Source: a virus (taxonomy: Duplodnaviria > Heunggongvirae > Uroviricota > Caudoviricetes). Taken from it: a stretch of 64,000 bases of DNA. Of this stretch, positions 28,894 to 63,418 are shown piece after piece. Every line of letters starts with the position of its first letter. The stretch's first letter is position 1. The translations under genes and the position numbers were made by a program. The notes beneath the pieces were generated by a model that worked only from the letters and a program-made list of their open reading frames with translations, did not search any database and had not been told where the DNA came from. The stretch lies in IMG/VR virus record IMGVR_UViG_3300037042_007115, one strand, 5' to 3'.

Positions 28894-29466
28894 TTATTTT
28901 TCTGGTAGAATCCAGTGGAGTTCTGGTGTACCAGTAAAGCCTTTCTCCCATAGGTACCATGAAAATGCCATTATGCTCACACCCTCTGCGGAGCAAGTTA
29001 CTCGCTTAGAGAATATATACACACGCTTGGGGGGAAATTTACTCCACAGAGCGTTATAGCGTTCCTGAGACTCAAGTAATTGTATCCTAGCAAACATCGC
29101 AATCTTTTCTACACTGGGTTCCTCCAGGGCGCGCAGAATAAACGGTAGTGCTAATTTGAATGGCGGGTTGGTAATAATGGATTTAGGATAGAAAGCGGGT
29201 ATACTATTCTGAAGGAAATCTACTCCAGGGTATTTTCCATAGGTATCTTCCCGAATATCCGAGCTTACTACTTCATACCCGTATTTCTCTAGGATTTTAG
29301 AGATAGCACCAGCACCACTGGCAGGTTCCCAGATTGGCCCAGGAAATTTCTCCCTTTTCAAGAGTTCTTCTATGGCTAAAGCTGGGGTTTCATAAAAGTC
29401 ATCTTTTTGCCTATTCTCTGGCTGAGAATACCCAACAGCCCTCTGAGCCCCTGTGCCTATTGGCAT
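28894..29466 (-). CDS. DNA methyltransferase (N6-adenine or N4-cytosine type, NPPF motif)
   Basis: DFYETP...WEPASGAGAI (motif I) and IITNPPF (motif IV). 190 aa with no obvious separate target-recognition domain. Confidence 0.65.
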   Translation of the reverse strand: MPIGTGAQRAVGYSQPENRQKDDFYETPALAIEELLKREKFPGPIWEPASGAGAISKILEKYGYEVVSSDIREDTYGKYPGVDFLQNSIPAFYPKSIITNPPFKLALPFILRALEEPSVEKIAMFARIQLLESQERYNALWSKFPPKRVYIFSKRVTCSAEGVSIMAFSWYLWEKGFTGTPELHWILPEK

Positions 29467-29468
29467 AT

Positions 29469-29903
29469 TTAATCCACCATTATATTGCGGGTTTTATTAC
29501 TAGCTAAGAACATTACAAAATTAGCCACATCCCCAGCTTCCATCCAGACCTCTTCTGAGGACTTTCCTTCTTTTATTACCTCAATGAATTCGCAGAGCTC
29601 ATTATTAAGCCTACGTATAGCATCTTCAGTAGAAAGGTATTTCCAAGTATCACCACGTGCTTTATCCTGGGTAGTGAGTTTCATCTCCATAGCAATAGCA
29701 AGCTGTAAAACTTCAGGTCTAATATAAGAGGCAAGTAACTCCAGAGACTGTTGGTGAAACTCAGACTTCAGTAATTGACCCGGCTTCATATTCATTATGG
29801 CATCCATTTCTTGGGCTAATGAGAAAGCTCTTGCAGAAATTTTTATGGGTGGCGAGCAGTGTATCCCATCAGCATCAGTGATATAAATGAATTTTTCCAG
29901 CAT
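29469..29903 (-). CDS. MazG-like NTP pyrophosphohydrolase (small all-alpha type)
   Basis: EEVWMEAGDVANFVMFLA matches the MazG EExxExxDxxxxxxxLA metal-binding helix. Confidence 0.5.
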   Translation of the reverse strand: MLEKFIYITDADGIHCSPPIKISARAFSLAQEMDAIMNMKPGQLLKSEFHQQSLELLASYIRPEVLQLAIAMEMKLTTQDKARGDTWKYLSTEDAIRRLNNELCEFIEVIKEGKSSEEVWMEAGDVANFVMFLASNKTRNIMVD

Positions 29904-31082: not shown

Positions 31083-32873
31083 TTATTTTACCTGGGCTTC
31101 AGGTTTATTGCCCGGCATTTCTGCTAGAGTTTTTGCCATGAAGGCGTTGAACAGGTTGGCACTCTGTCCTTCTCCGTTACCCCCCTGGACGAGGAAGTTG
31201 GGAGTAATCTGAACATGGCCATCTGCTACCTTCTTCATCACTTCAATCATAGTGATAGAAGAGGAACCCAGGACCTGCTTTTGTGCCTCATAAGCCGCCG
31301 CTGCACCTTCACCTACTTTCTGGGCGGCATATGCATCACCATCTGCTTTAGCGATTGTTGCATCACGGATACCGGCTGCTTCTTTCCTAGCTGCTTCGGC
31401 TTTGTCAAAGGCAATGTCGATTGACAACTTTGCAGCAATGATATCTGTCTGTTTGTCTGCCCTTGCTGTTTTTTCTGCTACTTCAATACGGCTCTCTTGG
31501 GCTTTGGCTTCTTCACCATACTGCTGTTGCTGCTGGACCGCAATCTCTTTCTTGGTCTGGGTTTCGAGTAGAGCTGCTGGAGTCTGGATATATGCAATTA
31601 ACAGGCCCTGAACTTCTACATGGTACCGGCTGAATTCTTTACGGGCTGCTGCAAGTGCCTGTTCCTGAAGAAGTGTCCTACTCCTGACGAATTCAATTGC
31701 CTGCTTTTCACCTGCTGCATTCCTGAATGAGGAATCAATCAATGGATGAGCAACCTGTTCAATCAAGTTAGCCACTGTACCAAACCTAGCGATGACTGCT
31801 GATGCATTAGCCGGGGGAATACGAATGATAAGCCGGACATCAACTTCTAGACCAAAACCATCCTGAGAGGTAACTTTTAACTGGCTGAACTTATAGAACT
31901 CAGTAGATTTCTCTCCGGATGCTTTTCCTGTTTGGCTTTGGGTTGCAATATCAGTTTCCTTATTACCTGAGCTTGCTGCCCAATCAATAGTTACTGCACT
32001 GGTTGGTACAAGTACCGCTTTATAGCCCCTGGTATTCAAGTTATATTTACCTGCGGTTACCGGAGACTTCAAAATACCCCGCTGGGTTTCATCAGTGATA
32101 AGAACTACTTCCACATCCTCTACATTAGGCTGTTGTAGGCTTGGGGCCAGACTGATTCCTGGTGGAATAGCTCTCTTCTCTAGCTCTTTCCCGACACTAG
32201 AAATGATGACTGCTACATAACCCGGCGGAACTTGGGCGACATTCTCTGATTGTACCTCAAACAGTAATGGGTTAATGTAATATTCCCCGGGCTGCAGAGT
32301 TTCCAGTTGAATACCCCTATGTCCTCCTGAGACAATAAAAGCATTCCCATCTGCAAAGTGCTGAGTATTTGCAGCAGGAGCAGGAGCAATCATATATTCA
32401 GCAGACAGAGGAATACCATCCTGAGCCGTAAGAATTCCTATCTTGTCACCGGGGATAACTACCGCGGGTGAAACTTTCACTGTAAACATAGCCCGGTTGA
32501 TCCTATGCGTTCCTGGGAGCAATATCCCAACTTGTGGGCCCTTGCATCCCCCGGCCTGTACAAAGGCTTTCGCATCCTGGAACCCATTGCACTCTACCAC
32601 GTCTCCCAGCAACCTGCCTGCCGGAATAGGCTTTCCTTCAATAGACCCCACGACACCTACTTGCCCGGGTGGAATCTCAACTACCGATGCCTTACGCACG
32701 GAAAAGACAATCGGCATCCTCCAGTAGAGCCCAGGCACAAGTGTGTCAGCCTGGACGCCGACTTCACCGTGTAATGCAATAATTTGCCCGGGAGACATTG
32801 TAGCACCAAACATATTCTTGGTGACAAGGCCAACTTCGTTATCTCGTATGAGATTAAATCCAAAGAATGACAT
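31083..32873 (-). CDS. SPFH/band-7 (flotillin-like) protein
   Basis: 596 aa. N-terminal hydrophobic segment. SPFH core. Long Ala/Glu/Lys/Gln coiled-coil flotillin-type region. Confidence 0.7.
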   Translation of the reverse strand: MSFFGFNLIRDNEVGLVTKNMFGATMSPGQIIALHGEVGVQADTLVPGLYWRMPIVFSVRKASVVEIPPGQVGVVGSIEGKPIPAGRLLGDVVECNGFQDAKAFVQAGGCKGPQVGILLPGTHRINRAMFTVKVSPAVVIPGDKIGILTAQDGIPLSAEYMIAPAPAANTQHFADGNAFIVSGGHRGIQLETLQPGEYYINPLLFEVQSENVAQVPPGYVAVIISSVGKELEKRAIPPGISLAPSLQQPNVEDVEVVLITDETQRGILKSPVTAGKYNLNTRGYKAVLVPTSAVTIDWAASSGNKETDIATQSQTGKASGEKSTEFYKFSQLKVTSQDGFGLEVDVRLIIRIPPANASAVIARFGTVANLIEQVAHPLIDSSFRNAAGEKQAIEFVRSRTLLQEQALAAARKEFSRYHVEVQGLLIAYIQTPAALLETQTKKEIAVQQQQQYGEEAKAQESRIEVAEKTARADKQTDIIAAKLSIDIAFDKAEAARKEAAGIRDATIAKADGDAYAAQKVGEGAAAAYEAQKQVLGSSSITMIEVMKKVADGHVQITPNFLVQGGNGEGQSANLFNAFMAKTLAEMPGNKPEAQVK

Positions 32874-32958: not shown

Positions 32959-33582
32959 TTAGGTTTGGTGCAGGATTAAGTCGAGATCTTGTAGGACTTT
33001 ATCAAATACTTGAACGTGAGTAGAATTTTCGGTGCTAATTTGGATTACTATGTTAGTGAAAGCACATTCCCGGTAGAACTTTTGGTAGTTAGCTTCTACT
33101 TTTGCTAAGAAATTAGCCTTCTCATAATTATCAATTGTAGTCCTAGAGGCTGCTCGGATACGGGCTTCTGATGTTTCTGGCTTAGCTGTGAGGTGGATAA
33201 CTACATCAGGAGGCAGGATCCATGAGCCATTATAGATATTCCAGAGCCAGATATCCGGGTGCTCCATGTATCCTTCAAGCGTAGCAGTCTGATAGGCAAG
33301 ATGTGAGTGTAGATACCTATCAGTGATAACTATTTTTCCTTTAGCTAAGGCTGGTTTTACTACATTCTCAATATGGTGCCTATGGTCAGCTGCGAATAGC
33401 AAAGCAGAAAGAACCTCATCATTCTGGTTAATGCACTGTTTAATGAGGTTTCTGTACCCGGTATCTGAAGGCTCCCTGCTAAAGACTGCTTGGTTACCCC
33501 TTAAAGCATCTCTCAATAGCTCTACTAAGCCGGATTTGCCTGTTCCATCTACTCCTTCAATTGCAATAATTATTGAACTCAT
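32959..33582 (-). CDS. tmk: thymidylate (dNMP) kinase
   Basis: IAIEGVDGTGKSGL P-loop and overall dTMP-kinase layout, including an R-rich lid region. Confidence 0.7.
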   Translation of the reverse strand: MSSIIIAIEGVDGTGKSGLVELLRDALRGNQAVFSREPSDTGYRNLIKQCINQNDEVLSALLFAADHRHHIENVVKPALAKGKIVITDRYLHSHLAYQTATLEGYMEHPDIWLWNIYNGSWILPPDVVIHLTAKPETSEARIRAASRTTIDNYEKANFLAKVEANYQKFYRECAFTNIVIQISTENSTHVQVFDKVLQDLDLILHQT

Positions 33583-48767: not shown

Positions 48768-49427
48768 TTAAAGGTCACTTCTGACTGAATTTTTCCCGAA
48801 GAAAGATTGTATGTAGACCTCCCCCGGCCCAGTGAGGTGTGTGGTGAATAAACCTCTTCCGCTGAAGAGGATATTGTTAACTGTTTTTACGAATTTAACA
48901 TCTAGTGTGATAGTGGTACTGAAAGCTAGTAAGCGACTGCTAGTTACTTCCAACTCTTCCCCGGGGCCTAATATTTTCTTATGAAGTTCCCCCCAGCCGT
49001 GGAGCACTACTTTACCGTTTCCAGATAGTCTCTCTAGGACCAAACCTTCACCACTGAATACTGCCATCCTAATTCGCTTCATAAAAGCTATGTCAAGGTC
49101 AACCCCGGGTTCAGCACATAGGTAAGCCGCCCTGTCACATAGGTAGTTGTGGTCCTTGTCTATTTCAAGAATCAGCATATTACCACAGACCCTATCAGCA
49201 AGGGAGATTACTTGCCCATCTTCTAATGCCGTGAAGGTGGTCATATATAGCGAATCACCTCCGGCAAGCCTTCTTACTGCTTTAAGCATTCCCCCATAGA
49301 TTTCAGTTTCCATCTCTACCTCTTTGGTCATAGAGAGGAGAGCATTGGTTTGCGCTATTAGTTGTTCACCCTTGTTTAGCTCAATTGAAACAATGGGGTA
49401 TAAGTTTCCATCAATAATATACTTCAT
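48768..49427 (-). CDS. AIM24/TIGR00266-family protein
   Basis: 219 aa, Gly-rich beta-strand repeats typical of the family (GEGLVLERLSGNGKVVLHGWGEL...LLAF). Confidence 0.45.
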   Translation of the reverse strand: MKYIIDGNLYPIVSIELNKGEQLIAQTNALLSMTKEVEMETEIYGGMLKAVRRLAGGDSLYMTTFTALEDGQVISLADRVCGNMLILEIDKDHNYLCDRAAYLCAEPGVDLDIAFMKRIRMAVFSGEGLVLERLSGNGKVVLHGWGELHKKILGPGEELEVTSSRLLAFSTTITLDVKFVKTVNNILFSGRGLFTTHLTGPGEVYIQSFFGKNSVRSDL

Positions 49428-51546: not shown

Positions 51547-54500
51547 TCATTCACTCCCCCAATCCCCGAAGTGTGTATCTGTTACAATGGGTACTGTAAG
51601 ATTCACCCCCAACTTGGCCAATAGTGGCGGACACTCTATGAGCTTCTTTATCTCGGGTAGAAGTTTATCTGCTATATCATCACGTATTTCCATAAGGATA
51701 GCATCATGAATAGTTCCTACGATGTTTAATACATCCTTTCCATAGGTCGTACTTAGTGCAACCACAGCCATCATCGTCATATCACTTGCAAATCCCTGAA
51801 CAGGCGCGTTTATTGAGTTGCGTTCTGCCTGTGCACGTACTCCCTCATCGGGTGACATAATCTCCGGCAGGTGTCTAATACGCCCATCAAGGCATTTTAC
51901 CTGTCCATACTGCCTTACCATCACTTTTTGCCGCTGGTGCCACTTTGGAAGCTCAGAATAGGTTTCAAAGAACCTCTGTCTAAATGCGGTAGCTTCCTCT
52001 ATTGTGAGGTCCGTTTCATATTTATCCCGGGCGTATTCCTGGAACTTCTTCTCCCGCATGCCGTAAAGGAACCCAAAATTACAGTTTCCCTGTATTCCCA
52101 CTTTATTGTCTCTTCTTATAACGATATTTTCTGCCTGGACTTGTACACAATATGCCATATGACTGCCGGGTATCTTTTGGAAGCTTAGGTGTGTTCTCGA
52201 GTCGAGTCGTCCGCCGGGCCTATAGGTAATTTTGTACCCCTCAGTTCTTTTCTTATCTCTAGGGGGCATAACATATAGTACTGCTCGTGTCCCAGAAGTA
52301 CAGGCCATAGCTTGCATTATATCCGCACTTTGTCGAACATGTGTAGTAAATTTTGTATATTTTTGAGCAAATTTTTCACTTGACCAAGAGTCCCAGTAAG
52401 CTGCTTCATCGAGATAAACTATTGCCGGGATGTCTGTTAGGCAGGACCAGGAGAGATTTTTATTATCATCAAGATACGGCTTTATCATCCCCATAATTTT
52501 CGGTGAGTTCATTTCAAAGATAGTTGCTCCATCAGCCCTTGTTCTACGGGTATAACTTACCCCATAGGCATCTAGAAGTTGTTTACATCTGTCTATTTTG
52601 TGCTGCTTTTTAAACCCAAATCTAAGGCGGGTGTGGTCTTTAAATGACCCATCAGCTGCGATCATAGCTAAGATTCGAGTTTCAGTTTCTGTTAGTTTAT
52701 ACTCCGTTCTTTTAAGGAGCCCAGCAGAGAATAGATAAGTATTTTGAGGAACTGAATCTGCGCGCCTCTTCTCTACACGTTCCGTGTTCCTATTGAAATA
52801 CAAAATTTCGTGATCTGCTGTTACTAATAGATCATTATTTCTATCTATGAAACTATACAGCTCTCTATTATTTTGGGATTGAAAAGCTATAGGCTTAGTA
52901 AACGATATTTCTTGCGTTTCTTGGAAATACTGCGCTACTTCATCTGTGCCATTATATTTATCAAATCTTACCCAACCGGCTTTTGTGAGTATTTCAGTAT
53001 CCCCTGAGAAGCATGCCTTGGCTTTCTTTCGCTCATCCTTAGTAATTAGCTCAGGGGGTTTTCCAGTGATAAGGGAAGCTGTCTTCCGGTGTATGTCGCC
53101 CTTCGGGTCATTGAAGATACCTATCATTGTTGGGTCCCCGCTTACCATAGCTGCTATCCTAAGCTCAACTTGGGAGTAATCACACTCTAATAGTCTCCAT
53201 CCTGGTGGGGCGCCTATAAGAGTTCTAATCTTTTTGTCACGTGGAACCTGCTGGAGGTTAGGGTCACTACATGAATTATGAACACAGAGCTCATTTGCTA
53301 TAAAATTATGCGTATCTTCTACCTCTATATCATACACAGGGAAGATTCCCGGTAGTTTCTCCACATAAGTAATCATATGATTCTGGGGCTTGGGCTTGGC
53401 GTTATCTGGTAGTTTGGCCAGTGTTCGGGTCCTACCATAAACTACTCTAGCTTCCTTAGTTTTACTTACAGTTTCCCCAGTAAAATGTAAATAGTTATAA
53501 TCACCGCGTGACCTATGCAGGGCCATAACATGCTCCCCATGATGATATCGTTTTCTCCATTTGATATATTTTCCCCCCGCTAGATCTTCTACTTTGATAT
53601 AACTTCCGGAGGTTAACCGAATTGGGTGGTTCCCTGTAGCATCCAGAAAACCCTCAGTATGCCCCCCTTGCCCCACCCAATGCACTCTATAACAGGGCTT
53701 GCTGCCCGTAAGCCCAGAACTCTTGACTTTTTTCAAAGTTAACTTTAATTCATCATCAAACGAATATACTAAGTCTCCCGTCTTTATATCTTGGATGGGC
53801 CTAGTTCCACCCGGTATCATGACTTCTGTACCTTCTCTTAAGCAGAGTCTGCCAGTAACGGTCCCGTGCAGCTTAAAGTTAGGATGTAGTCTTTCGTGCG
53901 GACCTAAGAATTTCTTCCACCCCTCAATAAAGCTCGATACCTGCTTAGCCAGCTCCCTATGTTTGAGTAATAAATCAATTCCTTCGTGTTGACCTTTCAG
54001 TCGTTGAAGAATACCTTCTGCAGTAGAGGGTGCACCAGACTTAGTAAGTTCTAATGGTACCAACTTCCAATCCTCGAATAAGATCTTACCAACCTGCTTA
54101 GGACTGTTCCAGTTTACCCCAGGAGCCATAGCCTCTAGTTTATCATGTACCTCAGCGAGTTCAGCTTTAAGGACAATTTCCAGTGCGGCTAGACGCTCTT
54201 TATGGACGAATACGCCATGACACTCAATATCTTCAAAGGCTTCAAACGCCGGCATAATAAGGAACTTAAAAAGCTTAAGGAGATCAGCATTCTTCATTAA
54301 CTGACCACGCTGCATTTTATATAACCTGAGAGTGTACAAAACATCATAGCCACAATACTCATACATCTTCTCTAGGTCTGGGCCTTGTCCTCTTTTATCT
54401 TCAGATGAGATATCATAAGCTGGAGCATTAAGATGAACCTTAGCCAGATACTTTAGGCCACATGGCTCATTCTCATTCAAGATATGGGCTGCCATCATGG

Positions 54501-55419
54501 TATCAAAAGTAATTGGGAACCTAATATCATAGTGTACCCGGAGCCACCTATTATCAAACTTCCCATTCTGAGTGACAATCTTCTTGCCTTTCATCATAAG
54601 TAAGATTTCTTGGAGGCCTTCCTTCATGCCACCTTTAGTCTTGAAGATAAGATTCTCACCAGACATAGGCAGCACCCACTGTCTCTCCTGTGTCAGCTCA
54701 TTATCCGCATATCTGGAGATGCCCAAACAGTTAATATCTGCGCCTTCTTCTCTCGGGTCTAAACAAGTGGTTTCTAAGTCAAAGCCAATTACTGGGCAGT
54801 CTTTGAGGTCATGCAGCATTTCTTTGAACTGCTCTACATTTCTTATGATAGTAAGGTTTAAGCCGGTACTAGGCTTCCAGGTACCATTGATTATTTCAAA
54901 GAACTTTTTCATATCTGATTTAAGCGGGGCTTCTTTCTTTGGATCCCGGAGTGCTGCAGCTGGATGAAATGCAGGTAAGTATGTTATACCCTCTTTTTCA
55001 ATAGGAACCCCATGAATATCCATAATCCCGCTGGCTCCTTTGCCTAAGACGCCTTTTAAGGCTACCGCACCCATAACAATGATGAATTTAGGTTTAACCT
55101 CATCTATTTCTCTTTGAAGATGCACCTTACATGCTTTAATTTCAGCTTGTGTAGGAGATTCATTTTCAGGTGCAGAACAGTGAATTAAATGAGTCAAATA
55201 AAGGGTATCTCTACTTACTCCATTCTCCATCAAAATTCGGTCTAGGAGTCGCCCGGCATTTCCGGGGAAGGGTTTTGTAAGCTCTGATTTATAATTAGTG
55301 GGTGCCTCCCCTATTATCATAACATTACAGGGGGTAGGGCCCTGGCCCATAACGCATACTAACGGGGAACTTGCATACCGGGTGCAAAGTTTGCAACTTG
55401 AATCTCCAAAAACAGGCAT
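51547..55419 (-). CDS. family-A DNA polymerase with N-terminal family-4 UDG-like domain and 3'-5' exonuclease domain, interrupted by two inteins
   Basis: UDG-like region: CKLC Fe-S Cys pair, GEAPT (GE[AG]PG-like motif A), F.GNAGRLL, HPAAALR (HPSxxLR-like motif B). Exonuclease motif I IGFDLETT. PolA pre-motif A TGRL//SCSDPNLQQVP. Motif A CDYSQVELRIAA. Motif B RKKAKA//CNFGFLYG. Motif C IHDAIL (HDA rather than HDE). Confidence 0.9.
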   Translation of the reverse strand: MPVFGDSSCKLCTRYASSPLVCVMGQGPTPCNVMIIGEAPTNYKSELTKPFPGNAGRLLDRILMENGVSRDTLYLTHLIHCSAPENESPTQAEIKACKVHLQREIDEVKPKFIIVMGAVALKGVLGKGASGIMDIHGVPIEKEGITYLPAFHPAAALRDPKKEAPLKSDMKKFFEIINGTWKPSTGLNLTIIRNVEQFKEMLHDLKDCPVIGFDLETTCLDPREEGADINCLGISRYADNELTQERQWVLPMSGENLIFKTKGGMKEGLQEILLMMKGKKIVTQNGKFDNRWLRVHYDIRFPITFDTMMAAHILNENEPCGLKYLAKVHLNAPAYDISSEDKRGQGPDLEKMYEYCGYDVLYTLRLYKMQRGQLMKNADLLKLFKFLIMPAFEAFEDIECHGVFVHKERLAALEIVLKAELAEVHDKLEAMAPGVNWNSPKQVGKILFEDWKLVPLELTKSGAPSTAEGILQRLKGQHEGIDLLLKHRELAKQVSSFIEGWKKFLGPHERLHPNFKLHGTVTGRLCLREGTEVMIPGGTRPIQDIKTGDLVYSFDDELKLTLKKVKSSGLTGSKPCYRVHWVGQGGHTEGFLDATGNHPIRLTSGSYIKVEDLAGGKYIKWRKRYHHGEHVMALHRSRGDYNYLHFTGETVSKTKEARVVYGRTRTLAKLPDNAKPKPQNHMITYVEKLPGIFPVYDIEVEDTHNFIANELCVHNSCSDPNLQQVPRDKKIRTLIGAPPGWRLLECDYSQVELRIAAMVSGDPTMIGIFNDPKGDIHRKTASLITGKPPELITKDERKKAKACFSGDTEILTKAGWVRFDKYNGTDEVAQYFQETQEISFTKPIAFQSQNNRELYSFIDRNNDLLVTADHEILYFNRNTERVEKRRADSVPQNTYLFSAGLLKRTEYKLTETETRILAMIAADGSFKDHTRLRFGFKKQHKIDRCKQLLDAYGVSYTRRTRADGATIFEMNSPKIMGMIKPYLDDNKNLSWSCLTDIPAIVYLDEAAYWDSWSSEKFAQKYTKFTTHVRQSADIMQAMACTSGTRAVLYVMPPRDKKRTEGYKITYRPGGRLDSRTHLSFQKIPGSHMAYCVQVQAENIVIRRDNKVGIQGNCNFGFLYGMREKKFQEYARDKYETDLTIEEATAFRQRFFETYSELPKWHQRQKVMVRQYGQVKCLDGRIRHLPEIMSPDEGVRAQAERNSINAPVQGFASDMTMMAVVALSTTYGKDVLNIVGTIHDAILMEIRDDIADKLLPEIKKLIECPPLLAKLGVNLTVPIVTDTHFGDWGSE
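52084..53013 (-). mobile_element. intein 2 (310 aa) with LAGLIDADG-type homing-endonuclease domain, inserted in PolA motif B
   Basis: Residues 803-1112: N-terminal CFSGDTEILTKAG (block A), ILAMIAADGSF (LAGLIDADG), C-terminal ...VGIQGN, with +1 Cys. Removing it restores RKKAKACNFGFLYG. Codon-level check: the Cys-1 codon TGC lies at 53011..53013 on the - strand. Confidence 0.7.
53275..53844 (-). mobile_element. mini-intein 1 (190 aa) inserted within the PolA TGRL|SS motif
   Basis: Residues 526-715: N-terminal CLREGTEVMIPGG (block A), GFLDATGNHPI (block B, T..H), C-terminal VYDIEVEDTHNFIANELCVHN, with +1 Ser. No endonuclease domain. Removing it restores TGRLSCSDPNLQQVP. Confidence 0.75.
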
Positions 55420-59103: not shown

Positions 59104-59742
59104 TTAATCATCTCCTTTTTTGATTTCAATAACGGGTCCCGTCTCAATCACCGGTACATACCCCCGTTCTCTAACCTTAGCTAGGAATTTTTCATCAGAA
59201 GCTTGGGCGGCAGTTAATACCTGCTGGATTTCTTGTACCATAAATGCATAGACAATACGTTCTGGGTGGTCAATATCAAACTCATTTGCATTTGGATGGG
59301 CTAAGAATACCCAAGATCCCGGAGCAATTCCCTTAGGCACAGATGGAATACGTTTTGATACTCCTGTTTGTATAGCTTCCCTGATGAAGTCTTTGGGTGT
59401 TGGATAGAACCTTTCTCCTATCCACATTAAACCCGCTGAATTAGGCGGGTAACATACTGGACAACTTGTATCACACTCACAGGTTTGTTCTGGAAGAACC
59501 GGAATATCCGCTTCCTCGGCTTCTTCAGCAAGGTGGATTCCAAACATCTTCATTGGGTCAAAGATACGGACACTTCTAAGAGACCGTATTGTTTCCCCAC
59601 AGCAAGGACAGACTGGTATTTTCATAGGGAGCCTGTCGCACTTAGTAGATACCCCCATACCGAAAAGGTACAGTCCTGGGTATCTAAATCCGCATCCCCT
59701 CTTGACTCGGGGAATTTCTTTTACTTCGGCTTCAGTATTCAT
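59104..59742 (-). CDS. zinc-finger protein
   Basis: 212 aa with CPCCGE and CECDTSCPVC. Confidence 0.4.
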   Translation of the reverse strand: MNTEAEVKEIPRVKRGCGFRYPGLYLFGMGVSTKCDRLPMKIPVCPCCGETIRSLRSVRIFDPMKMFGIHLAEEAEEADIPVLPEQTCECDTSCPVCYPPNSAGLMWIGERFYPTPKDFIREAIQTGVSKRIPSVPKGIAPGSWVFLAHPNANEFDIDHPERIVYAFMVQEIQQVLTAAQASDEKFLAKVRERGYVPVIETGPVIEIKKGDD

Positions 59743-60074: not shown

Positions 60075-60509
60075 TTATTCCGGTAAAGGTGCCTTTTTAG
60101 TTCTTTTAATAAATTCTACAAGTTTAGGATGAAGTTTTCTAAGGACTACTAAAAACTGTGCGTCAGACTTATAGTAATGTACAGGTTTATAGGAGAGCGT
60201 AGTGTACTCGGGTCTCATCTTAAAATACTCCAGGGCCCCCATAGGTAGTCCTTTCTGGGTCGGAGGTATATAGTCCCAAATAAGGGTAGCATATTCCCCG
60301 GAGCTTCCTGGAGTGGGCTCAGCAAAGAACCTGATCTCATAGACGCTGCGACCAAACTCAGCATAAAAATCTCTTGATGGGTAGAAGCCTAAGAGGTCGC
60401 CCTCCAAGTGTGTCTGTCGAGAGTCTAGGAATTTTTGGAACCTATCCCAGATAACTTGAGATTTATGGTTTAGGTTCAAAAATAGTAAATTATTGTCTAT
60501 TTCGAGCAT
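60075..60509 (-). CDS. hypothetical protein
   Basis: 144-aa ORF. Confidence 0.4.
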   Translation of the reverse strand: MLEIDNNLLFLNLNHKSQVIWDRFQKFLDSRQTHLEGDLLGFYPSRDFYAEFGRSVYEIRFFAEPTPGSSGEYATLIWDYIPPTQKGLPMGALEYFKMRPEYTTLSYKPVHYYKSDAQFLVVLRKLHPKLVEFIKRTKKAPLPE

Positions 60510-61066
60510 GAGATAATACGATTCGGTGTGTAAAGATATACTTTGATACCCGCTTCTATTAGTAACTCTATGCCATCAGTTTTTCGGTACTTTTCCAAGA
60601 AGTATACTGACGAGATACCAGAATTAATTAGTAATTTTGCACAATCGAGGCATGGGGATAGACTACACCACAACTCTGCTCCTTCTACAGAGATACCATG
60701 TCGGGATGAAAAAGCTATTGCATTGCTTTCTGCATGTATTGTTCTGATACATCCACCATTTTCTCCAATTTTACACCCCACATCTATGCAGTGAGGTAAT
60801 CCACTAGGAGATCCACCATAGCCCATAGAGATGATTCGATTTTCTCTTACTATTAAAGCAGAGACTTGGGCTCTTGTGCAAGTAGACCTCTTTTTTACTA
60901 CTTCAAGGATCCCTACAAACATTTCTGCTCGAGATAGGCGAGTTTTTCTTGTAAGGTCAGTTTCAGGTTCATTATTGTGGTTGCATGGGGTTGTTATAGA
61001 GCATGAGCAAAGGTCCCGTTTAAACACTGGTGGATGACGGGCTGCTGCTTTTTTAGCCATAACCAT
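60497..61066 (-). CDS. dCMP deaminase (cytidine/deoxycytidylate deaminase family)
   Basis: HAESNAI (zinc-binding H/CAE) and SPCLDCAKLL (PCxxC). Confidence 0.7.
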   Translation of the reverse strand: MVMAKKAAARHPPVFKRDLCSCSITTPCNHNNEPETDLTRKTRLSRAEMFVGILEVVKKRSTCTRAQVSALIVRENRIISMGYGGSPSGLPHCIDVGCKIGENGGCIRTIHAESNAIAFSSRHGISVEGAELWCSLSPCLDCAKLLINSGISSVYFLEKYRKTDGIELLIEAGIKVYLYTPNRIISCSK

Positions 61067-61545
61067 TATTCATCATCCTCTGGGTCTACCCCTTCATTTT
61101 CAAAATCTTCTGCCTCTGTTTCGGGTTCTGATAATTTTCCTGGACTTGTAGTGGGCCGAGGAGCAGCCGCTTCAGCTTGAGCTTTTTTAGCCTTTCGTAC
61201 CAATCTCCTTTCCTTCCTGCGGCGTTTCTTCTCTTGTTCCTTGTCTTCATCTAATTCTTGTGTTTCTGCTACAGCTTTTGGAATTGGCTCACTTAATACT
61301 TGTGGTACTGCGGGAGTTACTGGAGCAGGTATAGATATATTTGCTTCTTCTGGAATTTCTTCACCTTCATCTGGTTTTACATTAAGAGGTAGTGTTCCTG
61401 TTACATGGGGCTTTCCAGACCGAGTTTGTTTAATTCGGGCTAGGGCAGTATCCCAACTGCCCACTACCGTATGGCTACTTCTGGGGAATGGATAATGGAG
61501 GGAAATATTTTCTGTCTGCTGGAAGACCTCTTGGGGTTGTTCCAT
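61066..61545 (-). CDS. low-complexity acidic/basic protein
   Basis: 159 aa with KKRRRKERRLVRKAKKAQAE patch and acidic termini. Confidence 0.35.
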   Translation of the reverse strand: MEQPQEVFQQTENISLHYPFPRSSHTVVGSWDTALARIKQTRSGKPHVTGTLPLNVKPDEGEEIPEEANISIPAPVTPAVPQVLSEPIPKAVAETQELDEDKEQEKKRRRKERRLVRKAKKAQAEAAAPRPTTSPGKLSEPETEAEDFENEGVDPEDDE

Positions 61546-62228
61546 TAGAATACACCTTTCCCATCCTTCTTGAAAAGGTGCAGACTCATTACGAAATGAG
61601 TAAAGCGGCCAACTCTATAACCTGTCTTTTCTGCGATGTATCTTTGCATCATCACCGCCAGATAAACATCATTGTTGTAGTGGGTTGCAAAGTCACAAGA
61701 CCTTTGAATATAGGTCAAGTGAAGTAGTCCGCTACGAATCTGGATTTGATAGCCAATGGTACAGGGTATACGAGACACTCCGCCCATATACTGAATGTCA
61801 CTGGGTTGATACACTGCTAAAAAGAGCTGCCTGGAGTCTGGATCTACTTTAATTCTTTTGATGATACGTTCAATCTGGTCATACTGTGCAAATCTTTCCG
61901 GGTAGTTATAACCAAACTTCCCATCAGCACATCTAAATTCAGTCCAGACTTCCTTCCTGAGTTCCCAGGCCTCTCCGGGGTTTACCGGGGGTCTAGTAAT
62001 TCTTTCCCTGAATTCCGCATCGGCCCAAGGCTGTGTCGGAGTGAGATCCTCTGTACGCGGGTTTATAACCGTATAGGTATAATTCTGGATCTCAAGAGTG
62101 TCAAACGCCGGGTCATGCTCGACTATTTTGTCCTGATAAGATTTGGGGTGGATTTTTATCCCCATCTCAACCAGGTCTCTTTTGATTTCGCCAAGTGCTT
62201 CCTTTTTGAAATCAACATAAATTCGCAT
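61545..62228 (-). CDS. thymidylate-synthase-family (ThyA fold) pyrimidine-dNMP C5-methylase or hydroxymethylase
   Basis: IPCTIGYQIQIRSGLLHLTYIQRSCDF aligns residue-for-residue with ThyA [26 protein letters not shown] (catalytic Cys, RSxD phosphate-binding). Downstream HYNNDVYLAVMMQRY aligns with ThyA PFNIASYALLVHMM. No ThyX RHRxxS motif. Confidence 0.65.
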   Translation of the reverse strand: MRIYVDFKKEALGEIKRDLVEMGIKIHPKSYQDKIVEHDPAFDTLEIQNYTYTVINPRTEDLTPTQPWADAEFRERITRPPVNPGEAWELRKEVWTEFRCADGKFGYNYPERFAQYDQIERIIKRIKVDPDSRQLFLAVYQPSDIQYMGGVSRIPCTIGYQIQIRSGLLHLTYIQRSCDFATHYNNDVYLAVMMQRYIAEKTGYRVGRFTHFVMSLHLFKKDGKGVF

Positions 62229-62232
62229 TAAA

Positions 62233-62640
62233 TTACTCCCCCTTGGGGATTATGGGTTTTTTCTTTTTATTCATTACACCCCGGCTTAGATTTTCTACTG
62301 ATAAAATATGTCTTATCATTTGATCCGGGTCACTTTTTGATACAGATCGGAATGTATTAGAAGTATCATCTTCTTTAATTTTAGAATAGGAAATAATTAC
62401 TTGGTCTCCTACCATAAACATACTTATAATTCCAGAAGAAGCAAAAAATCTTTTTCCATTCTCTAGATAGACTAGGCCACCCTTGGTATCAACTAGGTAT
62501 TTTTCTATTACTACGCCTATAGTAATTCCATATTTCTTTTTGGTGCTTGGTCGGAGGATGTAAAATAAGCACGTTCCAGCTAATATAGATCCACATATTA
62601 GAAAGGCGAGTGCTACCGGGCTAATTAACAGTTCTTGCAT
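62233..62640 (-). CDS. membrane-anchored hypothetical protein
   Basis: 135 aa with an N-terminal TM helix. Confidence 0.4.
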   Translation of the reverse strand: MQELLISPVALAFLICGSILAGTCLFYILRPSTKKKYGITIGVVIEKYLVDTKGGLVYLENGKRFFASSGIISMFMVGDQVIISYSKIKEDDTSNTFRSVSKSDPDQMIRHILSVENLSRGVMNKKKKPIIPKGE

Positions 62641-62647
62641 ACTTACC

Positions 62648-63418
62648 TCAGTAATTACTTGTTTGTCTGAATTGATTTACTTTGTTCTTACGGAAATACA
62701 GGTCATCCAGGCGGGCCGCATCAATATCATAGGCAATACAAAGAATGAAAAAGTTCTCCCAAGTATAGTAGAGATGCTGTTTGAAAAGATTTTCATCTGT
62801 AACCATGTGGGTATTTTTCCATACCTTATTCTTTAAGGTGTTACACATAAGACCTAAAGAAGTAATTGTTCTTGACATTGCCTCATGCAAATCTCTCCGG
62901 GGCTTTCGGGCATGTACCCGTTCATGTGTGAGTAAATAAAAGATAGTTCCAAGAGGATCTTCCTGTTTCTCAGTACTAGACCCGCTCATAATACCATTAT
63001 ACACCTGTTCTGGAGTAACTCCGGCAAGAATAGTCAGTTCTGTTAAGAAGTGTAATGCATCTGCTACTTCTTCATGGACGTGGTCTAGTAATTCTGGGTG
63101 GATATCATATGCTTCCCGGGCCTCTGCAAGTTCTTCAGTTATACGCCATGCAAAGTCTTTTAATCTAGCTTGCCCAAAGCGGCAATGTAGACTAACAGGT
63201 ATATCTTTAGTTTGGAGGAGTCCATTTTTTTCCTCGATTTCTTCATACTTTTCCATAAGAAGTCTTTGCTTAGTGAATATTTCACGTAGTCGGTCTTCTG
63301 ATGCCGTGGTTTTTGAATCAAAATCTTGGACGTTCATGCTATCAGCTCCACAACTTTTTGCGGGTGTATATAACATGAGGTTTCCATCTATATATGTTTC
63401 ACTTTTTTCCCCGGCCAA
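62648..63418 (-). CDS. MazG-like / dimeric-dUTPase-like all-alpha NTP pyrophosphohydrolase
   Basis: EELAEAREAY and HEEVADALHFLTEL acidic helix motifs. Confidence 0.5.
   Translation of the reverse strand: MAGEKSETYIDGNLMLYTPAKSCGADSMNVQDFDSKTTASEDRLREIFTKQRLLMEKYEEIEEKNGLLQTKDIPVSLHCRFGQARLKDFAWRITEELAEAREAYDIHPELLDHVHEEVADALHFLTELTILAGVTPEQVYNGIMSGSSTEKQEDPLGTIFYLLTHERVHARKPRRDLHEAMSRTITSLGLMCNTLKNKVWKNTHMVTDENLFKQHLYYTWENFFILCIAYDIDAARLDDLYFRKNKVNQFRQTSNY

What the first reader, a model, noticed from the sequence alone, without database searches (positions are those of the whole stretch)
60497..63418. Possible DNA-hypermodification gene set: MazG-like NTPase, ThyA-fold enzyme with Asp at the substrate-specifying position, and dCMP deaminase
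The gene order MazG-like, TM protein, thymidylate-synthase-family enzyme, acidic protein, dCMP deaminase parallels phage pathways that make 5-hydroxymethyl pyrimidines. The known components of those pathways are a dNTP pyrophosphatase to deplete the canonical dNTP, a ThyA-fold hydroxymethylase and a kinase. In a by-eye alignment to E. coli ThyA (RSCD-VFLGLPFNIASYALL versus RSCD-FATHYNNDVYLAVMM), the Asn that specifies uracil falls on an Asp. That is the signature of dCMP hydroxymethylase-type enzymes. The enzyme is also shorter than ThyA, at 227 aa, and has PCT instead of PCH. A dNMP kinase, a second MazG and a DNA methyltransferase lie at 28.9-33.6 kb. This suggests the virion DNA carries modified cytosine or uracil bases.
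Basis: partly seen in the sequence, partly recalled or inferred. Interest (0 to 1): 0.7.

Follow-up and report, generated by a model that had tools for sequence, protein, structure and literature searches.

The report
Phage cytosine-replacement nucleotide gene module
This phage carries a gene set that most likely replaces the cytosine in its DNA with a 5-modified cytosine before replication; it is a real example of a pathway type already known from phages T4 and Xp12, and sequence alone does not show which chemical group is added.

Summary
On the minus strand at 60497-63418 lie five genes in the stated order. They are a T4 gp56-like all-alpha NTP pyrophosphatase, a small membrane protein, a 227-aa thymidylate-synthase-fold enzyme, an acidic protein and a dCMP-deaminase-family enzyme.

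Every alignment method puts Asp187 on E. coli ThyA Asn177. This Asp is invariant in 120 close homologues and in 142 of 143 aligned representatives. His147 is Thr, Asp169 is kept and the C-terminal lid is missing.

The pyrophosphatase and the TS-like gene sit together in all 10 related loci examined, and the deaminase in 9. In relatives the module usually lies directly upstream of a UDG-exo-PolA polymerase, often with a dTMP-kinase-like gene.

This is the T4/Xp12 style of pre-replicative cytosine replacement. Loci of this type have already been mined from metaviromes.

The product is unresolved. The enzyme fails the T4 hydroxymethylase signature because it has Arg, not Asp or Glu, three residues before the catalytic Cys. 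It also fails the 5-hydroxycytosine signature (D169N) and lacks the C-terminal lid of the Xp12 methylase. I lean towards 5-hydroxymethyl-dCMP, with 5-methyl-dCMP a close rival.

No post-replicative hypermodification enzymes were found. Verdict: new member of a known kind, of moderate interest.

The parts
62648..63337 (-). T4 gp56-like all-alpha NTP pyrophosphatase of the dUTPase_2 family. Its inferred role is to convert dCTP (and dUTP) to the monophosphate. The listed ORF runs to a TTG at 63418, but the likely start is the ATG at 63337.
   Evidence: Pfam dUTPase_2 5e-10 and phrog_12184 3e-28. It is 35-45% identical to the orthologue in every related locus and in C. perfringens phage CPD4, and all of those align from residue 28. 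Invariant motifs are TEE..E, EE..D..HF and the C-terminal Y..K..VN..R....Y, which match the C-terminus of T4 gp56. GGAG lies 9 nt before the ATG at 63337.
62233..62640 (-). 135-aa protein with an N-terminal hydrophobic segment. It is probably not part of the pathway.
   Evidence: No Pfam or PHROG match. No homologue in any related locus, and it is absent between the pyrophosphatase and TS-like genes in L014.
61545..62228 (-). TS-fold enzyme of 227 aa, inferred to be a dCMP-specific, folate-dependent C5 one-carbon transferase. Key residues in E. coli numbering: Cys156 = C146, Thr157 = H147, Arg153 = L143, Asp179 = D169, His183 = G173, Asp187 = N177. It has no C-terminal lid.
   Evidence: Thymidylat_synt 4.5e-20. 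Alignments. AlphaFold2 model with pLDDT 94. The best structural match is the CMP hydroxymethylase MilA, TM 0.82. The signature is conserved in 124 of 150 representatives at 50% identity.
61066..61545 (-). Acidic 159-aa protein of unknown function, translationally coupled to both neighbours.
   Evidence: TAATG one-base overlaps at both ends. It is 43% identical to the ORF in the same position in L014. The basic motif EKK..RRLARK recurs in the two ORFs at this position in L013. No family match.
60497..61066 (-). dCMP-deaminase-family zinc deaminase with the HAE and PCxxC motifs present. Its inferred role is dCMP to dUMP for dTMP supply. Deamination of the modified C nucleotide is the alternative.
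   Evidence: dCMP_cyt_deam_1 7e-19 and phrog_174 2e-49. The closest solved relatives are S. mutans dCMP deaminase 9e-28, cyanophage S-TIM5 9e-24 and T4 Cd 3.5e-21. PBCV-1 dCMP/dCTP deaminase scores only 7e-13, and the Xp12 deaminase gives only 26% identity over 84 aa.
60075..60509 (-). 144-aa protein of unknown function, conserved downstream of the deaminase in the closest relatives.
   Evidence: 42% identity to L014 10830-11234 and 25% to L013 11228-11761. No family match.
59104..59742 (-). 212-aa Cys-rich protein of unknown function, conserved in the same operon.
   Evidence: 51% identity to L013 13408-14028. No family match.
51547..55419 (-). Replicative DNA polymerase: a UDG-like domain, a 3'-5' exonuclease and PolA, interrupted by an intein. 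In relatives this polymerase lies directly after the deaminase.
   Evidence: Pfam DNA_pol_A 7e-75, UDG 5.5e-24, DNA_pol_A_exo1 2.5e-18 and Intein_splicing 5e-10. Neighbourhoods.
32959..33582 (-). dTMP-kinase-family kinase. Its inferred role is to phosphorylate the 5-substituted dCMP (and dTMP).
   Evidence: Thymidylate_kin 3.7e-33, TIGR00041 123.9 bits (cut-off 83.25) and phrog_761 6e-33. In relatives a phrog_761 kinase lies directly upstream of the pyrophosphatase.
29469..29903 (-). Its link to the pathway is unproven.
   Evidence: NCBIfam YabN MazG part at E 9e-4, and the motif EAGDVANF. No Pfam or PHROG match.
28894..29466 (-). DNA amino-methyltransferase (N6-adenine or N4-cytosine type). 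It is not part of the C5 pathway.
   Evidence: phrog_799 1e-53. Motifs FYETP, EPASGAGAI and NPPF.

Best explanation
This is a T4-style module that replaces cytosine before replication.

**Shown**
- The operon encodes three enzymes:
  - a gp56-family all-alpha NTP pyrophosphatase;
  - a TS-fold enzyme with the catalytic Cys, the folate-activating Asp169 and the cytosine-specifying Asp at position 177;
  - a canonical-looking dCMP deaminase.
- A dTMP-kinase-family gene lies elsewhere in the window.
- In relatives all four genes sit together in front of the phage PolA.

**Inferred pathway**
1. The pyrophosphatase hydrolyses dCTP to dCMP. This depletes canonical dCTP and feeds the next step.
2. 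The TS-fold enzyme attacks C6 of dCMP with Cys156 and transfers the one-carbon unit of methylene-tetrahydrofolate to C5.
3. The enzyme has no C-terminal lid to seal the site for hydride transfer, and the C5 pocket is polar (Arg153, Thr157, His183, Asn186). The exocyclic methylene is therefore most likely trapped by water. This gives 5-hydroxymethyl-dCMP and tetrahydrofolate.
4. The kinase and host NDP kinase raise the product to the triphosphate, and the phage PolA incorporates it in place of C.
5. The deaminase diverts part of the dCMP to dUMP for dTMP synthesis. That synthesis uses host ThyA here and a phage ThyX in several relatives.

**How likely**
- Some C5-modified cytosine replaces C in the virion DNA: about 0.75.
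- That modification is specifically hydroxymethyl: about 0.42.
For: **Residue mapping**
- All alignments place Asp187 on Asn177 and keep Cys146, Arg166, Ser167, Asp169, His207 and Trp80.
- Asp187 is invariant in 120 of 120 close homologues and in 142 of 143 aligned representatives.
- Asn-to-Asp at this position switches TS to dCMP (Liu and Santi 1992, Hardy and Nalivaika 1992, Graves et al. 1992, as cited in PMC8670742 and PMC13326640).
- Position 147 is Thr or Ser, as in T4 gp42 and MilA. Positions 177 and 147 are the two positions that best separate C-modified from unmodified metavirome contigs (PMC8670742).

**Fold and cofactor**
- The AlphaFold2 model is confident (pLDDT 94). Its best PDB match is the CMP hydroxymethylase MilA (TM 0.82), against about 0.75 for TS.
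- There is no C-terminal tail. In TS that tail seals the site for hydride transfer, and T4 dCH lacks it (PMC6400193).
- Asp169 is retained, so the folate-independent 5-hydroxycytosine type is excluded by the D169N rule (PMC13326640).

**The pyrophosphatase and deaminase**
- The pyrophosphatase is in the same Pfam family as T4 gp56 and shares its C-terminal motif.
- The deaminase is closest to canonical dCMP deaminases, including T4 Cd.

**Gene neighbourhood**
- The pyrophosphatase and TS-like gene co-occur in 10 of 10 related loci, with the deaminase in 9 of 10.
- Three loci add ThyX, and none has DHFR within about 9 kb. This fits a folate economy that never makes dihydrofolate.
- Xp12, a true dCMP methylase phage, has DHFR next to its TS and deaminase.
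- In C-modified metavirome contigs, 70% of dCMP deaminase genes lie within 3 kb of a TS homologue. Most of those TS homologues carry Asp177, and a MazG-type pyrophosphatase and PolA lie nearby (bioRxiv 10.1101/2024.12.05.627091).
Against: - The T4-type hydroxymethylase signature is not met. The residue three before the catalytic Cys is an invariant Arg (147 of 150 representatives), not Asp or Glu. T4 D145N is inactive (PMC6400193).
- There is no Ser/Thr-x-Tyr motif in either plausible alignment register.
- The Trp83 equivalent stays aromatic (Phe98).
- The family profile scores E. coli ThyA (53.7 bits) and Xp12 TS (47.4) above T4 gp42 (38.6).
- The TS-like gene and the deaminase are tightly coupled. 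In several relatives they overlap by one base, exactly as in Xp12.
- No enzyme that decorates a hydroxymethyl group was found.
- Nothing here measures DNA composition or enzyme activity.
- No member of this clade with a tested product turned up in the literature I could search.
Confidence: 0.42

Rival explanations
1. Xp12-style 5-methylcytosine pathway. The TS-fold enzyme is a dCMP methyltransferase that makes 5-methyl-dCMP and dihydrofolate. The coupled deaminase converts part of the 5-methyl-dC nucleotide pool (mono- or triphosphate) into dTMP or dTTP. The virion DNA then carries 5mC in place of C.
For: - Asp177 is also present in the Xp12 enzyme.
- There is no acidic residue three before the Cys. 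Acidic residues at that position correlate with hydroxymethyl products (PMC13326640, PMC6400193).
- Phe98 keeps the bulky residue at the Trp83 position.
- The order TS then deaminase, with overlapping stop and start, matches Xp12.
- Five of seven deaminase-linked metavirome TS homologues that were tested made 5-methyl-dC. Their deaminases acted on 5-substituted cytosine nucleotides: all seven converted 5hmdC in vivo, and the purified one preferred 5-methyl-dCTP (bioRxiv 10.1101/2024.12.05.627091).
Against: - The roughly 45-residue C-terminal region is missing. It seals the site for hydride transfer, and Xp12 TS (289 aa) retains it.
- Residue 147 is Thr or Ser, as in hydroxymethylases. Xp12 has Pro.
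- There is no DHFR in any of 10 loci, whereas Xp12 has one adjacent.
- ThyX in three relatives would be redundant if thymidine came from 5-methyl-dC.
- The deaminase resembles canonical dCMP deaminases far more than the Xp12 or PBCV-1 types.
Confidence: 0.33
2. The clade makes a different C5 product, or uses a different way of resolving the methylene intermediate, from any characterised TS-fold enzyme. The invariant Arg at Cys-3 and His at position 173 would take part. In relatives a second, cryptic TS-fold protein (X) may also be involved.
For: - The combination Arg(Cys-3), His173 and Asp177 occurs in 124 of 150 representatives and in none of the characterised enzymes compared: E. coli ThyA, T4 gp42, Xp12 TS, MilA and 9iqu.
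- Both positions lie within 6 A of C5 in E. coli ThyA (PMC13326640).
- The clade fails the published signatures for hydroxymethylase, hydroxylase and canonical TS.
- TS homologues have recently been shown to do unexpected chemistry, namely flavin-dependent hydroxylation (PMC13326640; 9iqu and 9iqc).
- Protein X sits next to the TS-like gene in 7 loci and looks like a divergent TS fold.
Against: - Asp169, Glu72 (the likely Glu58 equivalent), Trp95 and the nucleotide-binding Arg and Ser residues are conserved. This fits ordinary methylene-folate chemistry.
- X is absent from this window.
- No unusual cofactor-binding domain is present.
Confidence: 0.12
3. The pathway ends in modified uracil. 5-hydroxymethyl-dCMP is made and then deaminated by the adjacent deaminase to 5-hydroxymethyl-dUMP, so the DNA carries 5hmU, possibly further modified.
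For: - The TS-like gene and the deaminase are tightly coupled.
- Seven metavirome deaminases converted 5hmdC to 5hmdU in vivo (bioRxiv 10.1101/2024.12.05.627091).
Against: - I found no 5-hmdU DNA kinase or pyrophosphorylase-type genes in the ORFs scanned.
- ThyX in relatives points to ordinary dTMP synthesis.
- The deaminase resembles canonical dCMP deaminases.
- C. perfringens phage CPD4 has the pyrophosphatase, kinase and TS-like genes but no deaminase.
Confidence: 0.05
4. This is ordinary nucleotide salvage with no base modification. The TS-fold enzyme makes dTMP, the deaminase supplies dUMP and the pyrophosphatase is a plain dUTPase.
For: - All three families also occur in phages with canonical DNA.
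- The automatic annotation is 'thymidylate synthase'.
Against: - Asn177 is Asp and His147 is Thr or Ser, and both are invariant.
- All NCBIfam thymidylate-synthase equivalogs score far below their cut-offs.
- The C-terminal lid is absent.
- Three relatives carry ThyX beside this gene, so a second dTMP synthase would be redundant.
Confidence: 0.05

Closest known systems
Phage T4 hydroxymethylcytosine pathway: gp56 dCTPase/dUTPase, gp42 dCMP hydroxymethylase, Cd dCMP deaminase, gp1 dNMP kinase
   Same: - The four enzyme roles are the same.
- The pyrophosphatase is in the same Pfam family (dUTPase_2) and shares a C-terminal motif with gp56.
- The TS fold has the catalytic Cys, Thr at position 147, Asp at 177 and no C-terminal lid.
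- The deaminase matches T4 Cd at 3.5e-21.
   Different: - Arg replaces the essential Asp145, and there is no Ser94-x-Tyr96 motif.
- The family profile scores gp42 lower than ordinary TS.
- The kinase is dTMP-kinase-like, not gp1-like.
- The genes are clustered and translationally coupled, whereas in T4 they are scattered.
- No glucosyltransferase is found.
Xanthomonas phage Xp12 5-methylcytosine pathway: TS-homologue dCMP methylase, adjacent deaminase, DHFR
   Same: - Asp sits at position 177.
- The TS-like gene is followed by a dCMP-deaminase-family gene with overlapping stop and start.
- The setting is a PolA-type replication module.
   Different: - Xp12 TS is 289 aa with a full C-terminal region, Pro at position 147 and Asn at Cys-3.
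- DHFR is adjacent in Xp12 and absent here.
- The two deaminases are only 26% identical over 84 aa.
Deaminase-plus-TS(Asp177) clusters of C-modified metavirome contigs (MetaGPA; PMC8670742 and bioRxiv 10.1101/2024.12.05.627091)
   Same: - The neighbourhood is the same: TS homologue with Asp177, dCMP_cyt_deam_1/MafB19 deaminase, an NTP pyrophosphatase, and DNA_pol_A with its exonuclease.
- This window would pass the published IMG/VR filter (PF00383 plus PF00303 with Asp at N177).
   Different: - Those papers name PRA-PH/MazG as the pyrophosphatase. Here it is a dUTPase_2/gp56-type protein.
- Whether any tested enzyme belongs to this Arg(Cys-3)/His173 clade could not be checked, because the supplements are not held.
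MilA, CMP 5-hydroxymethylase of mildiomycin biosynthesis (PDB 5jnh, 5b6d)
   Same: - It is the best structural match (TM 0.82, rmsd 2.5 A).
- It has Asp at position 177 and Thr after the catalytic Cys.
   Different: - MilA has Asp at Cys-3.
- It is about 320 aa.
- It acts on the ribonucleotide in an antibiotic pathway.
Flavin-dependent dCMP hydroxylases / 5-hydroxy-dCMP synthases (phage HY126 AfhB, PDB 9iqu/9iqc; RB69 gp48, DLP3 gp80)
   Same: - It is the best profile match among solved structures (3.6e-20).
- It is similarly short (234 aa), with Pro-Cys-Thr and Asp177.
   Different: - Those enzymes have Asn at position 169 (RSQN), the diagnostic change for 5hoC synthesis (PMC13326640).
- This clade keeps Asp169 in 141 of 143 aligned representatives.

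Membership tests
Thymidylate synthase / pyrimidine hydroxymethylase superfamily (PF00303) | Profile match above the curated cut-off, and the TS fold | tested here: met
   72.3 bits against a cut-off of 24.3. AlphaFold2 model pLDDT 94, with Foldseek probability 1.0 to MilA and to many TS structures.
Thymidylate synthase / pyrimidine hydroxymethylase superfamily (PF00303) | Catalytic Cys146 and the nucleotide-binding residues Arg166, Ser167 and Arg126' | tested here: met
   Cys156, Arg176, Ser177 and Arg133 are invariant in 120 homologues. Arg127' is Gln134.
Canonical ThyA (dUMP to dTMP) | Asn177, which specifies uracil | tested here: not met
   Asp187 in every alignment.
Canonical ThyA (dUMP to dTMP) | C-terminal lid that seals the folate site, and His147 | tested here: not met
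   The protein ends 10 residues after the His207 equivalent. Thr157 replaces His147. All NCBIfam thymidylate-synthase equivalogs score far below their cut-offs.
T4-type dCMP hydroxymethylase (gp42) | Asp179 (cytosine specificity) and Cys148 | tested here: met
   Asp187 and Cys156.
T4-type dCMP hydroxymethylase (gp42) | Asp or Glu three residues before the catalytic Cys, which activates the substrate water (PMC6400193) | tested here: not met
   Arg153. Arg occupies this position in 147 of 150 representatives.
T4-type dCMP hydroxymethylase (gp42) | Ser/Thr two residues before the catalytic Tyr (Ser94-x-Tyr96) | tested here: not met
   The sequence is Phe105-Gly-Tyr107-Asn-Tyr109. Neither Tyr has Ser or Thr at -2.
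T4-type dCMP hydroxymethylase (gp42) | Product is 5-hydroxymethyl-dCMP, with tetrahydrofolate released | not testable with these tools
   Needs an enzyme assay or LC-MS.
Xp12-type dCMP methyltransferase | Asp at position 177 on a full-length TS scaffold that can carry out hydride transfer | tested here: inconclusive
   Asp is present. The C-terminal region that Xp12 TS (289 aa) retains is missing here. No published signature for this class was available.
5-hydroxy-dCMP synthase / flavin-dependent dCMP hydroxylase | Asn at position 169 (D169N; PMC13326640) | tested here: not met
   Asp179, kept in 141 of 143 aligned representatives. 9iqu has RSQN.
All-alpha NTP pyrophosphatase, dUTPase_2 / T4 gp56 family | Profile match above the cut-off, and acidic metal-binding helices | tested here: met
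   40.3 bits against 22.9. TEE..E and EE..D..HF are invariant in 7 orthologues, with colinear matches to gp56.
All-alpha NTP pyrophosphatase, dUTPase_2 / T4 gp56 family | dCTP as a substrate | not testable with these tools
   Inferred only from context.
dCMP deaminase (PF00383) | Profile match, and the zinc motifs HAE and PCxxC | tested here: met
   68 bits against a cut-off of 25. IHAES and SPCLDC align with T4 Cd and S. mutans dCMP deaminase.
5-methylcytosine-selective deaminase (mSCD type) | Preference for 5-methyl-dCTP or 5-hydroxymethyl-dCTP | not testable with these tools
   The trait is reported as polyphyletic, with no sequence signature (bioRxiv 10.1101/2024.12.05.627091). The similarity pattern here favours the canonical type.
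dTMP kinase (TIGR00041) | Equivalog score above the cut-off | tested here: met
   123.9 bits against 83.25 for 32959-33582.

The most novel reading that the evidence does not exclude
The enzyme belongs to a large, uncharacterised clade of TS-fold proteins.
- The clade has at least 232 clusters at 50% identity.
- It is defined by an invariant Arg three residues before the catalytic Cys, His at position 173, Asp at position 177 and no C-terminal lid.

In the novel reading, this clade resolves the C5-methylene intermediate differently from both T4 gp42 and Xp12 TS, or it makes a C5 substituent not yet described. In most relatives it would work beside a cryptic second TS-fold protein (X) that current annotation misses.
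Probability: 0.12. Interest if true: 0.65.

Novelty: new member of a known kind. Interest (0 to 1): 0.35.

Why it matters
- **If the inference holds:** this roughly 178-kb uncultured phage and a wide set of relatives package DNA in which every cytosine is C5-modified. Some relatives are cultured, including phages of Pseudomonas, Serratia and Clostridium perfringens.
- **Consequences:**
  - sensitivity to restriction and to type IV systems changes;
  - cytosine-conversion sequencing (bisulfite or enzymatic) and restriction-based analysis would misread this DNA;
  - phage-therapy candidates may behave differently.
- **Why the kind is not new:** the pathway type is textbook (T4, Xp12), and such loci have already been mined from metaviromes.
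- **What is useful here:** the TS-fold clade fails every published product signature. It is therefore a well-defined, abundant target for a simple product assay.

Tried and rejected
- **DNA similarity.** Nucleotide search of the region against 50,697 phage records found nothing.
- **Stop-codon recoding.** I tested it because long ORFs are sparse in the first 40 kb. Removing any one stop codon raised ORF coverage about as expected for the base composition, so there is no clear signal.
- **Promoter and terminator scan of 58.7-64 kb.** Promoter-like matches were fewer, and terminator-like matches no more, than in shuffled sequence. This is uninformative.
- **Companion genes.** tblastn for ThyX, DHFR and T4 beta-glucosyltransferase in the window and in the 10 kb beyond it found none.
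- **Transferase hunt.** I scanned about 45 further ORFs of the window and the flank for glycosyl-, carbamoyl- or amino-transferases. None was found, but many small ORFs were not scanned.
- **Literature.**
  - A search by PDB code for 9IQU returned nothing relevant. Its identity as the phage HY126 dCMP hydroxylase came from the fold search.
  - I found no paper on base composition of C. perfringens phages CPD4, CP3 or CPAS-15, or of Pseudomonas phage PMBT14.
  - The supplement of the 5mC-deaminase preprint is not held. I could not check whether a tested TS belongs to this clade.
- **Model coordinates.** They are not exposed to scripts. I could not measure distances from Arg153 or His183 to the catalytic Cys.
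- **Rejected: a 5-hydroxycytosine synthase.** Asp169 is retained.
- **Rejected: the 596-aa ORF at 31083-32873 as a methyltransferase.** It is an SPFH/Band 7 protein.
- **Caution on 'pyrimidine hmase'.** That label in MW202777 is uncharacterised automatic-looking annotation, not evidence of product.

Full report
**1. What is in the sequence**

Two more conserved ORFs follow on the same strand, at 60075-60509 and 59104-59742.

| Coordinates | Length | Match |
|---|---|---|
| 62648-63418 | 256 aa | dUTPase_2 5e-10 (40.3 bits, cut-off 22.9); phrog_12184 'nucleotide pyrophosphohydrolase' 3e-28 |
| 62233-62640 | 135 aa | none |
| 61545-62228 | 227 aa | Thymidylat_synt 4.5e-20; phrog_160 8e-35 |
| 61066-61545 | 159 aa | none |
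| 60497-61066 | 189 aa | dCMP_cyt_deam_1 7e-19; phrog_174 2e-49 |

- The TS-like, acidic and deaminase genes overlap by one base (TAATG) at both junctions. They are therefore translationally coupled.
- Orthologues of the pyrophosphatase all align from its residue 28. An ATG with GGAG 9 nt upstream lies at 63337, so that is the likely start.
- No related nucleotide sequence exists among deposited phage genomes.
- An exact copy of the TS-like protein is on record on a 178-kb contig.

**2. The Asn177 question**

- phmmer against solved structures aligns QRSCDFATHYNNDVYL with QRSADVFLGVPFNIAS of E. faecalis TS, without gaps.
- MAFFT with E. coli ThyA, T4 gp42 and Xp12 TS gives the same register. 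So does a 41-sequence family profile against PDB sequences and against the references.
It is therefore correct.

Mapping to E. coli numbering:

| E. coli ThyA | This protein | Comment |
|---|---|---|
| Cys146 | Cys156 | catalytic Cys kept |
| His147 | Thr157 | changed |
| Leu143 | Arg153 | changed |
| Arg166 / Ser167 | Arg176 / Ser177 | kept |
| Asp169 | Asp179 | kept |
| Gly173 | His183 | changed |
| Asn177 | Asp187 | changed |
| His207 | His217 | kept |
| Trp80 | Trp95 | kept |
| Trp83 | Phe98 | still aromatic |

The chain ends 10 residues after His217, so the C-terminal lid of TS is missing. Asp187 is invariant in 120 homologues.

**3. What Asp177 does and does not say**

- Mutagenesis cited in PMC8670742 and PMC13326640 shows that Asn-to-Asp at this position switches TS from dUMP to dCMP. 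Asp187 is therefore good evidence for a cytosine substrate.
- It does not identify the product. Three product classes share Asp177:
  - T4 gp42 and MilA, which hydroxymethylate;
  - Xp12 TS, which methylates;
  - the flavin-dependent dCMP hydroxylases. 9iqu is 'phage HY126 dCMP hydroxylase AfhB' and carries RSQN...D.
- Published signatures separate these classes:
  - D169N marks 5-hydroxy-dCMP synthases (PMC13326640). This protein keeps Asp179, so that class is excluded.
  - T4-type hydroxymethylases have Asp or Glu three residues before the Cys, and T4 D145N is dead. They also have Ser/Thr-x-Tyr (PMC6400193). Here the first position is Arg153, and neither invariant Tyr (107, 109) has Ser or Thr at -2.
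- The enzyme is therefore not a member of the gp42 family in the strict sense.
- It also lacks the roughly 45-residue C-terminal region that Xp12 TS and all canonical TS keep. In TS that region seals the site for hydride transfer (PMC6400193).

**4. The clade**

- A word-indexed search found 783 homologues, mostly 225-235 aa.
- An exhaustive profile search of 1.84 billion representatives found 232 clusters at E <= 1e-30.
- Counts among the best 150 representatives:

| Feature (E. coli numbering) | Count |
|---|---|
| Arg at Cys-3 | 147 of 150 |
| Ser or Thr at position 147 | 143 of 150 |
| Asp169 | 141 of 143 aligned |
| His173 | 127 of 143 aligned |
| Asp177 | 142 of 143 aligned |
| Full pattern Arg / Cys / Ser-or-Thr / Asp / His / Asp | 124 of 150 |

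- The AlphaFold2 model is confident (pLDDT 94, pTM 0.91). Its best structural match is MilA (TM 0.82, rmsd 2.5 A). Canonical TS follows at about 0.75, and 9iqu/9iqc at 0.71-0.74.
- By profile score the clade is about as far from E. coli ThyA (53.7 bits) as from Xp12 TS (47.4), and further from T4 gp42 (38.6).
- This is a distinct, large clade. I could find no tested product for it.

**5. Gene neighbourhood**

I examined nine independent related loci as well as the window itself, ten loci in all.

- All ten have the gp56-like pyrophosphatase next to the TS-like gene. It is 35-45% identical to the window's copy wherever this was compared.
- Nine have a dCMP-deaminase-family gene. C. perfringens phage CPD4 lacks it.
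- In relatives with genomes of about 40-70 kb the order is:
  1. dTMP-kinase-like gene (phrog_761);
  2. pyrophosphatase;
  3. an unknown protein X of about 260-280 aa;
  4. TS-like gene;
  5. deaminase;
  6. UDG-exo-PolA, then a Cas4-like nuclease, AAA_24 and an SNF2 helicase.
- The window has the same replication genes, but its kinase lies 27 kb away.
- Three loci also carry ThyX.
- None carries DHFR, and none is found in the window. Xp12 has DHFR next to its TS and deaminase.
- Cultured carriers of the clade include Pseudomonas phage PMBT14, with the signature GRKPCT...RSCDLANHFRDD. Others are Serratia phages Serbin, Tlacuache and Opt-155, and the C. perfringens phages CPD4, CP3 and CPAS-15, at 48.6% identity.

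**6. The other enzymes**

- *Pyrophosphatase.* It has invariant acidic motifs (TEE..E and EE..D..HF). Its C-terminal motif aligns with the C-terminus of T4 gp56. gp56 is the dCTPase/dUTPase of the T4 pathway (annotation).
- *Deaminase.* It has the HAE and PCxxC zinc motifs.
  - It is closest to S. mutans dCMP deaminase (9e-28), cyanophage S-TIM5 (9e-24) and T4 Cd (3.5e-21).
  - It is far from PBCV-1 dCMP/dCTP deaminase (7e-13) and from the Xp12 deaminase (26% identity over 84 aa).
- *Membrane protein.* It has no homologue in any relative, so it is probably not part of the pathway.
- *Conserved unknowns.* The acidic protein, the 144-aa protein and the Cys-rich 212-aa protein are conserved in the closest relatives. 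Their functions are unknown.

**7. Mechanism**

The best-supported reading is a pre-replicative cytosine-replacement pathway.

1. dCTP is hydrolysed to dCMP.
2. The TS-fold enzyme adds a one-carbon unit from methylene-tetrahydrofolate to C5 of dCMP.
3. The kinase and host NDP kinase make the triphosphate.
4. The phage PolA incorporates it.
5. The deaminase supplies dUMP for dTMP.

The presence, integrity and co-occurrence of the genes are shown. The substrates and the flow between the enzymes are inferred.

For the product I weigh the evidence as follows.

| Favours hydroxymethyl | Favours methyl |
|---|---|
| No C-terminal lid | No acidic residue at Cys-3 |
| Thr/Ser at position 147, as in gp42 and MilA | Aromatic residue kept at the Trp83 position |
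| Polar C5 pocket | TS-like gene and deaminase coupled as in Xp12 |
| MilA is the best structural match | Five of seven deaminase-linked metavirome TS homologues tested made 5-methyl-dC (bioRxiv 10.1101/2024.12.05.627091) |
| ThyX present and DHFR absent across relatives | |
| Canonical-type deaminase | |

My estimates:

| Outcome | Probability |
|---|---|
| 5-hydroxymethylcytosine | about 0.42 |
| 5-methylcytosine | about 0.33 |
| Another product or mechanism | about 0.12 |
| Modified uracil through deamination | about 0.05 |
| No modification | about 0.05 |

**8. Comparison with what is known, and novelty**

- The pathway type is that of T4 and Xp12.
- The MetaGPA papers already reported the key points:
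  - positions 177 and 147 of TS homologues best distinguish C-modified contigs (PMC8670742);
  - 70% of dCMP deaminase genes in such contigs lie within 3 kb of a TS homologue, alongside an NTP pyrophosphatase and PolA (bioRxiv 10.1101/2024.12.05.627091).
- This window would pass their IMG/VR filter. The finding is therefore a new member of a known kind.
- One point remains open and modestly interesting. This abundant clade fails every published product signature.
- 'Hypermodification' is not supported, because no transferase that would decorate the base was found.

**9. Limits**

- No composition or activity data exist for this phage.
- I found no such data for its cultured relatives in the literature I could search.
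- Only 74 kb of a 178-kb genome was visible.
- Many small ORFs were not scanned.

Noticed in passing
L007 7177-8016; L005 4447-5292; L010 8209-9000; L011 8201-9004 and 9712-10482; L012 9693-10475; L001 5208-5957 (CPD4_74); L015 5207-5995 (PMBT14): A protein 'X' of about 250-280 aa and unknown function (phrog_34294) sits beside the TS-like gene in most relatives, but is absent from this window. It has invariant Gly-Tyr, Cys, Arg..Glu and Asp residues. hhalign places these colinearly on Tyr94, Cys146, Arg166, Asp169 and Asp177 of the TS-like family, though only at E 0.022. The PMBT14 copy (262 aa) was hit by Foldseek with the TS-like model (E 4e-5, TM 0.47). It may be a cryptic second TS-fold protein.
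   Followed up: partly
window 51547-55419 (-): The replicative PolA carries an N-terminal UDG-superfamily domain and an intein (Hint and Intein_splicing) inside the polymerase. Relatives have the same UDG-exo-PolA fusion without the intein, at about 800 aa.
   Followed up: no
P0166, P0178, P0180, P0205 (representative search): Some members of the TS-like clade are 579-648 aa and match the profile in two separated stretches. This looks like intein or other insertions within the gene.
   Followed up: no
window 61066-61545 (-); L014 9682-10266; L013 9682-10393: The acidic protein between the TS-like gene and the deaminase ends in a conserved basic motif (EKK..RRLARK). The motif recurs in both ORFs at the same position in L013. 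Its function is unknown.
   Followed up: partly
window 28894-29903 (-): A compact DNA amino-methyltransferase (FYETP, EPASGAGAI, NPPF; phrog_799 1e-53, no Pfam hit) lies directly downstream of a small, weakly MazG-like ORF.
   Followed up: partly
window 5609-6178 (+); also L014 14236-14697: A circularly permuted YpsA SLOG-family protein (cpYpsA 2.9e-26), a nucleotide-binding family of unclear role, is present here and in a close relative.
   Followed up: no
window 48768-49427 (-) and 31083-32873 (-): The window encodes an AIM24-family protein (6.5e-55) and a 596-aa SPFH/Band 7 protein (1e-18). Both are unusual for a phage replication region.
   Followed up: no
window 1-40000: Long ORFs cover only 35-48% of this part under the standard code, against 66-76% in 40-64 kb. 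A stop-codon recoding test gave no clear signal, so the region may simply hold many small genes.
   Followed up: partly
L003 1-10000 (the 10 kb beyond the window end): A block diverges from the module: an ATP-dependent DNA ligase, two small SAM-methyltransferase-like ORFs, an integrase-like 209-aa ORF and a 469-aa unknown. The ligase, integrase-like and 470-aa genes recur in the same arrangement in L014.
   Followed up: partly
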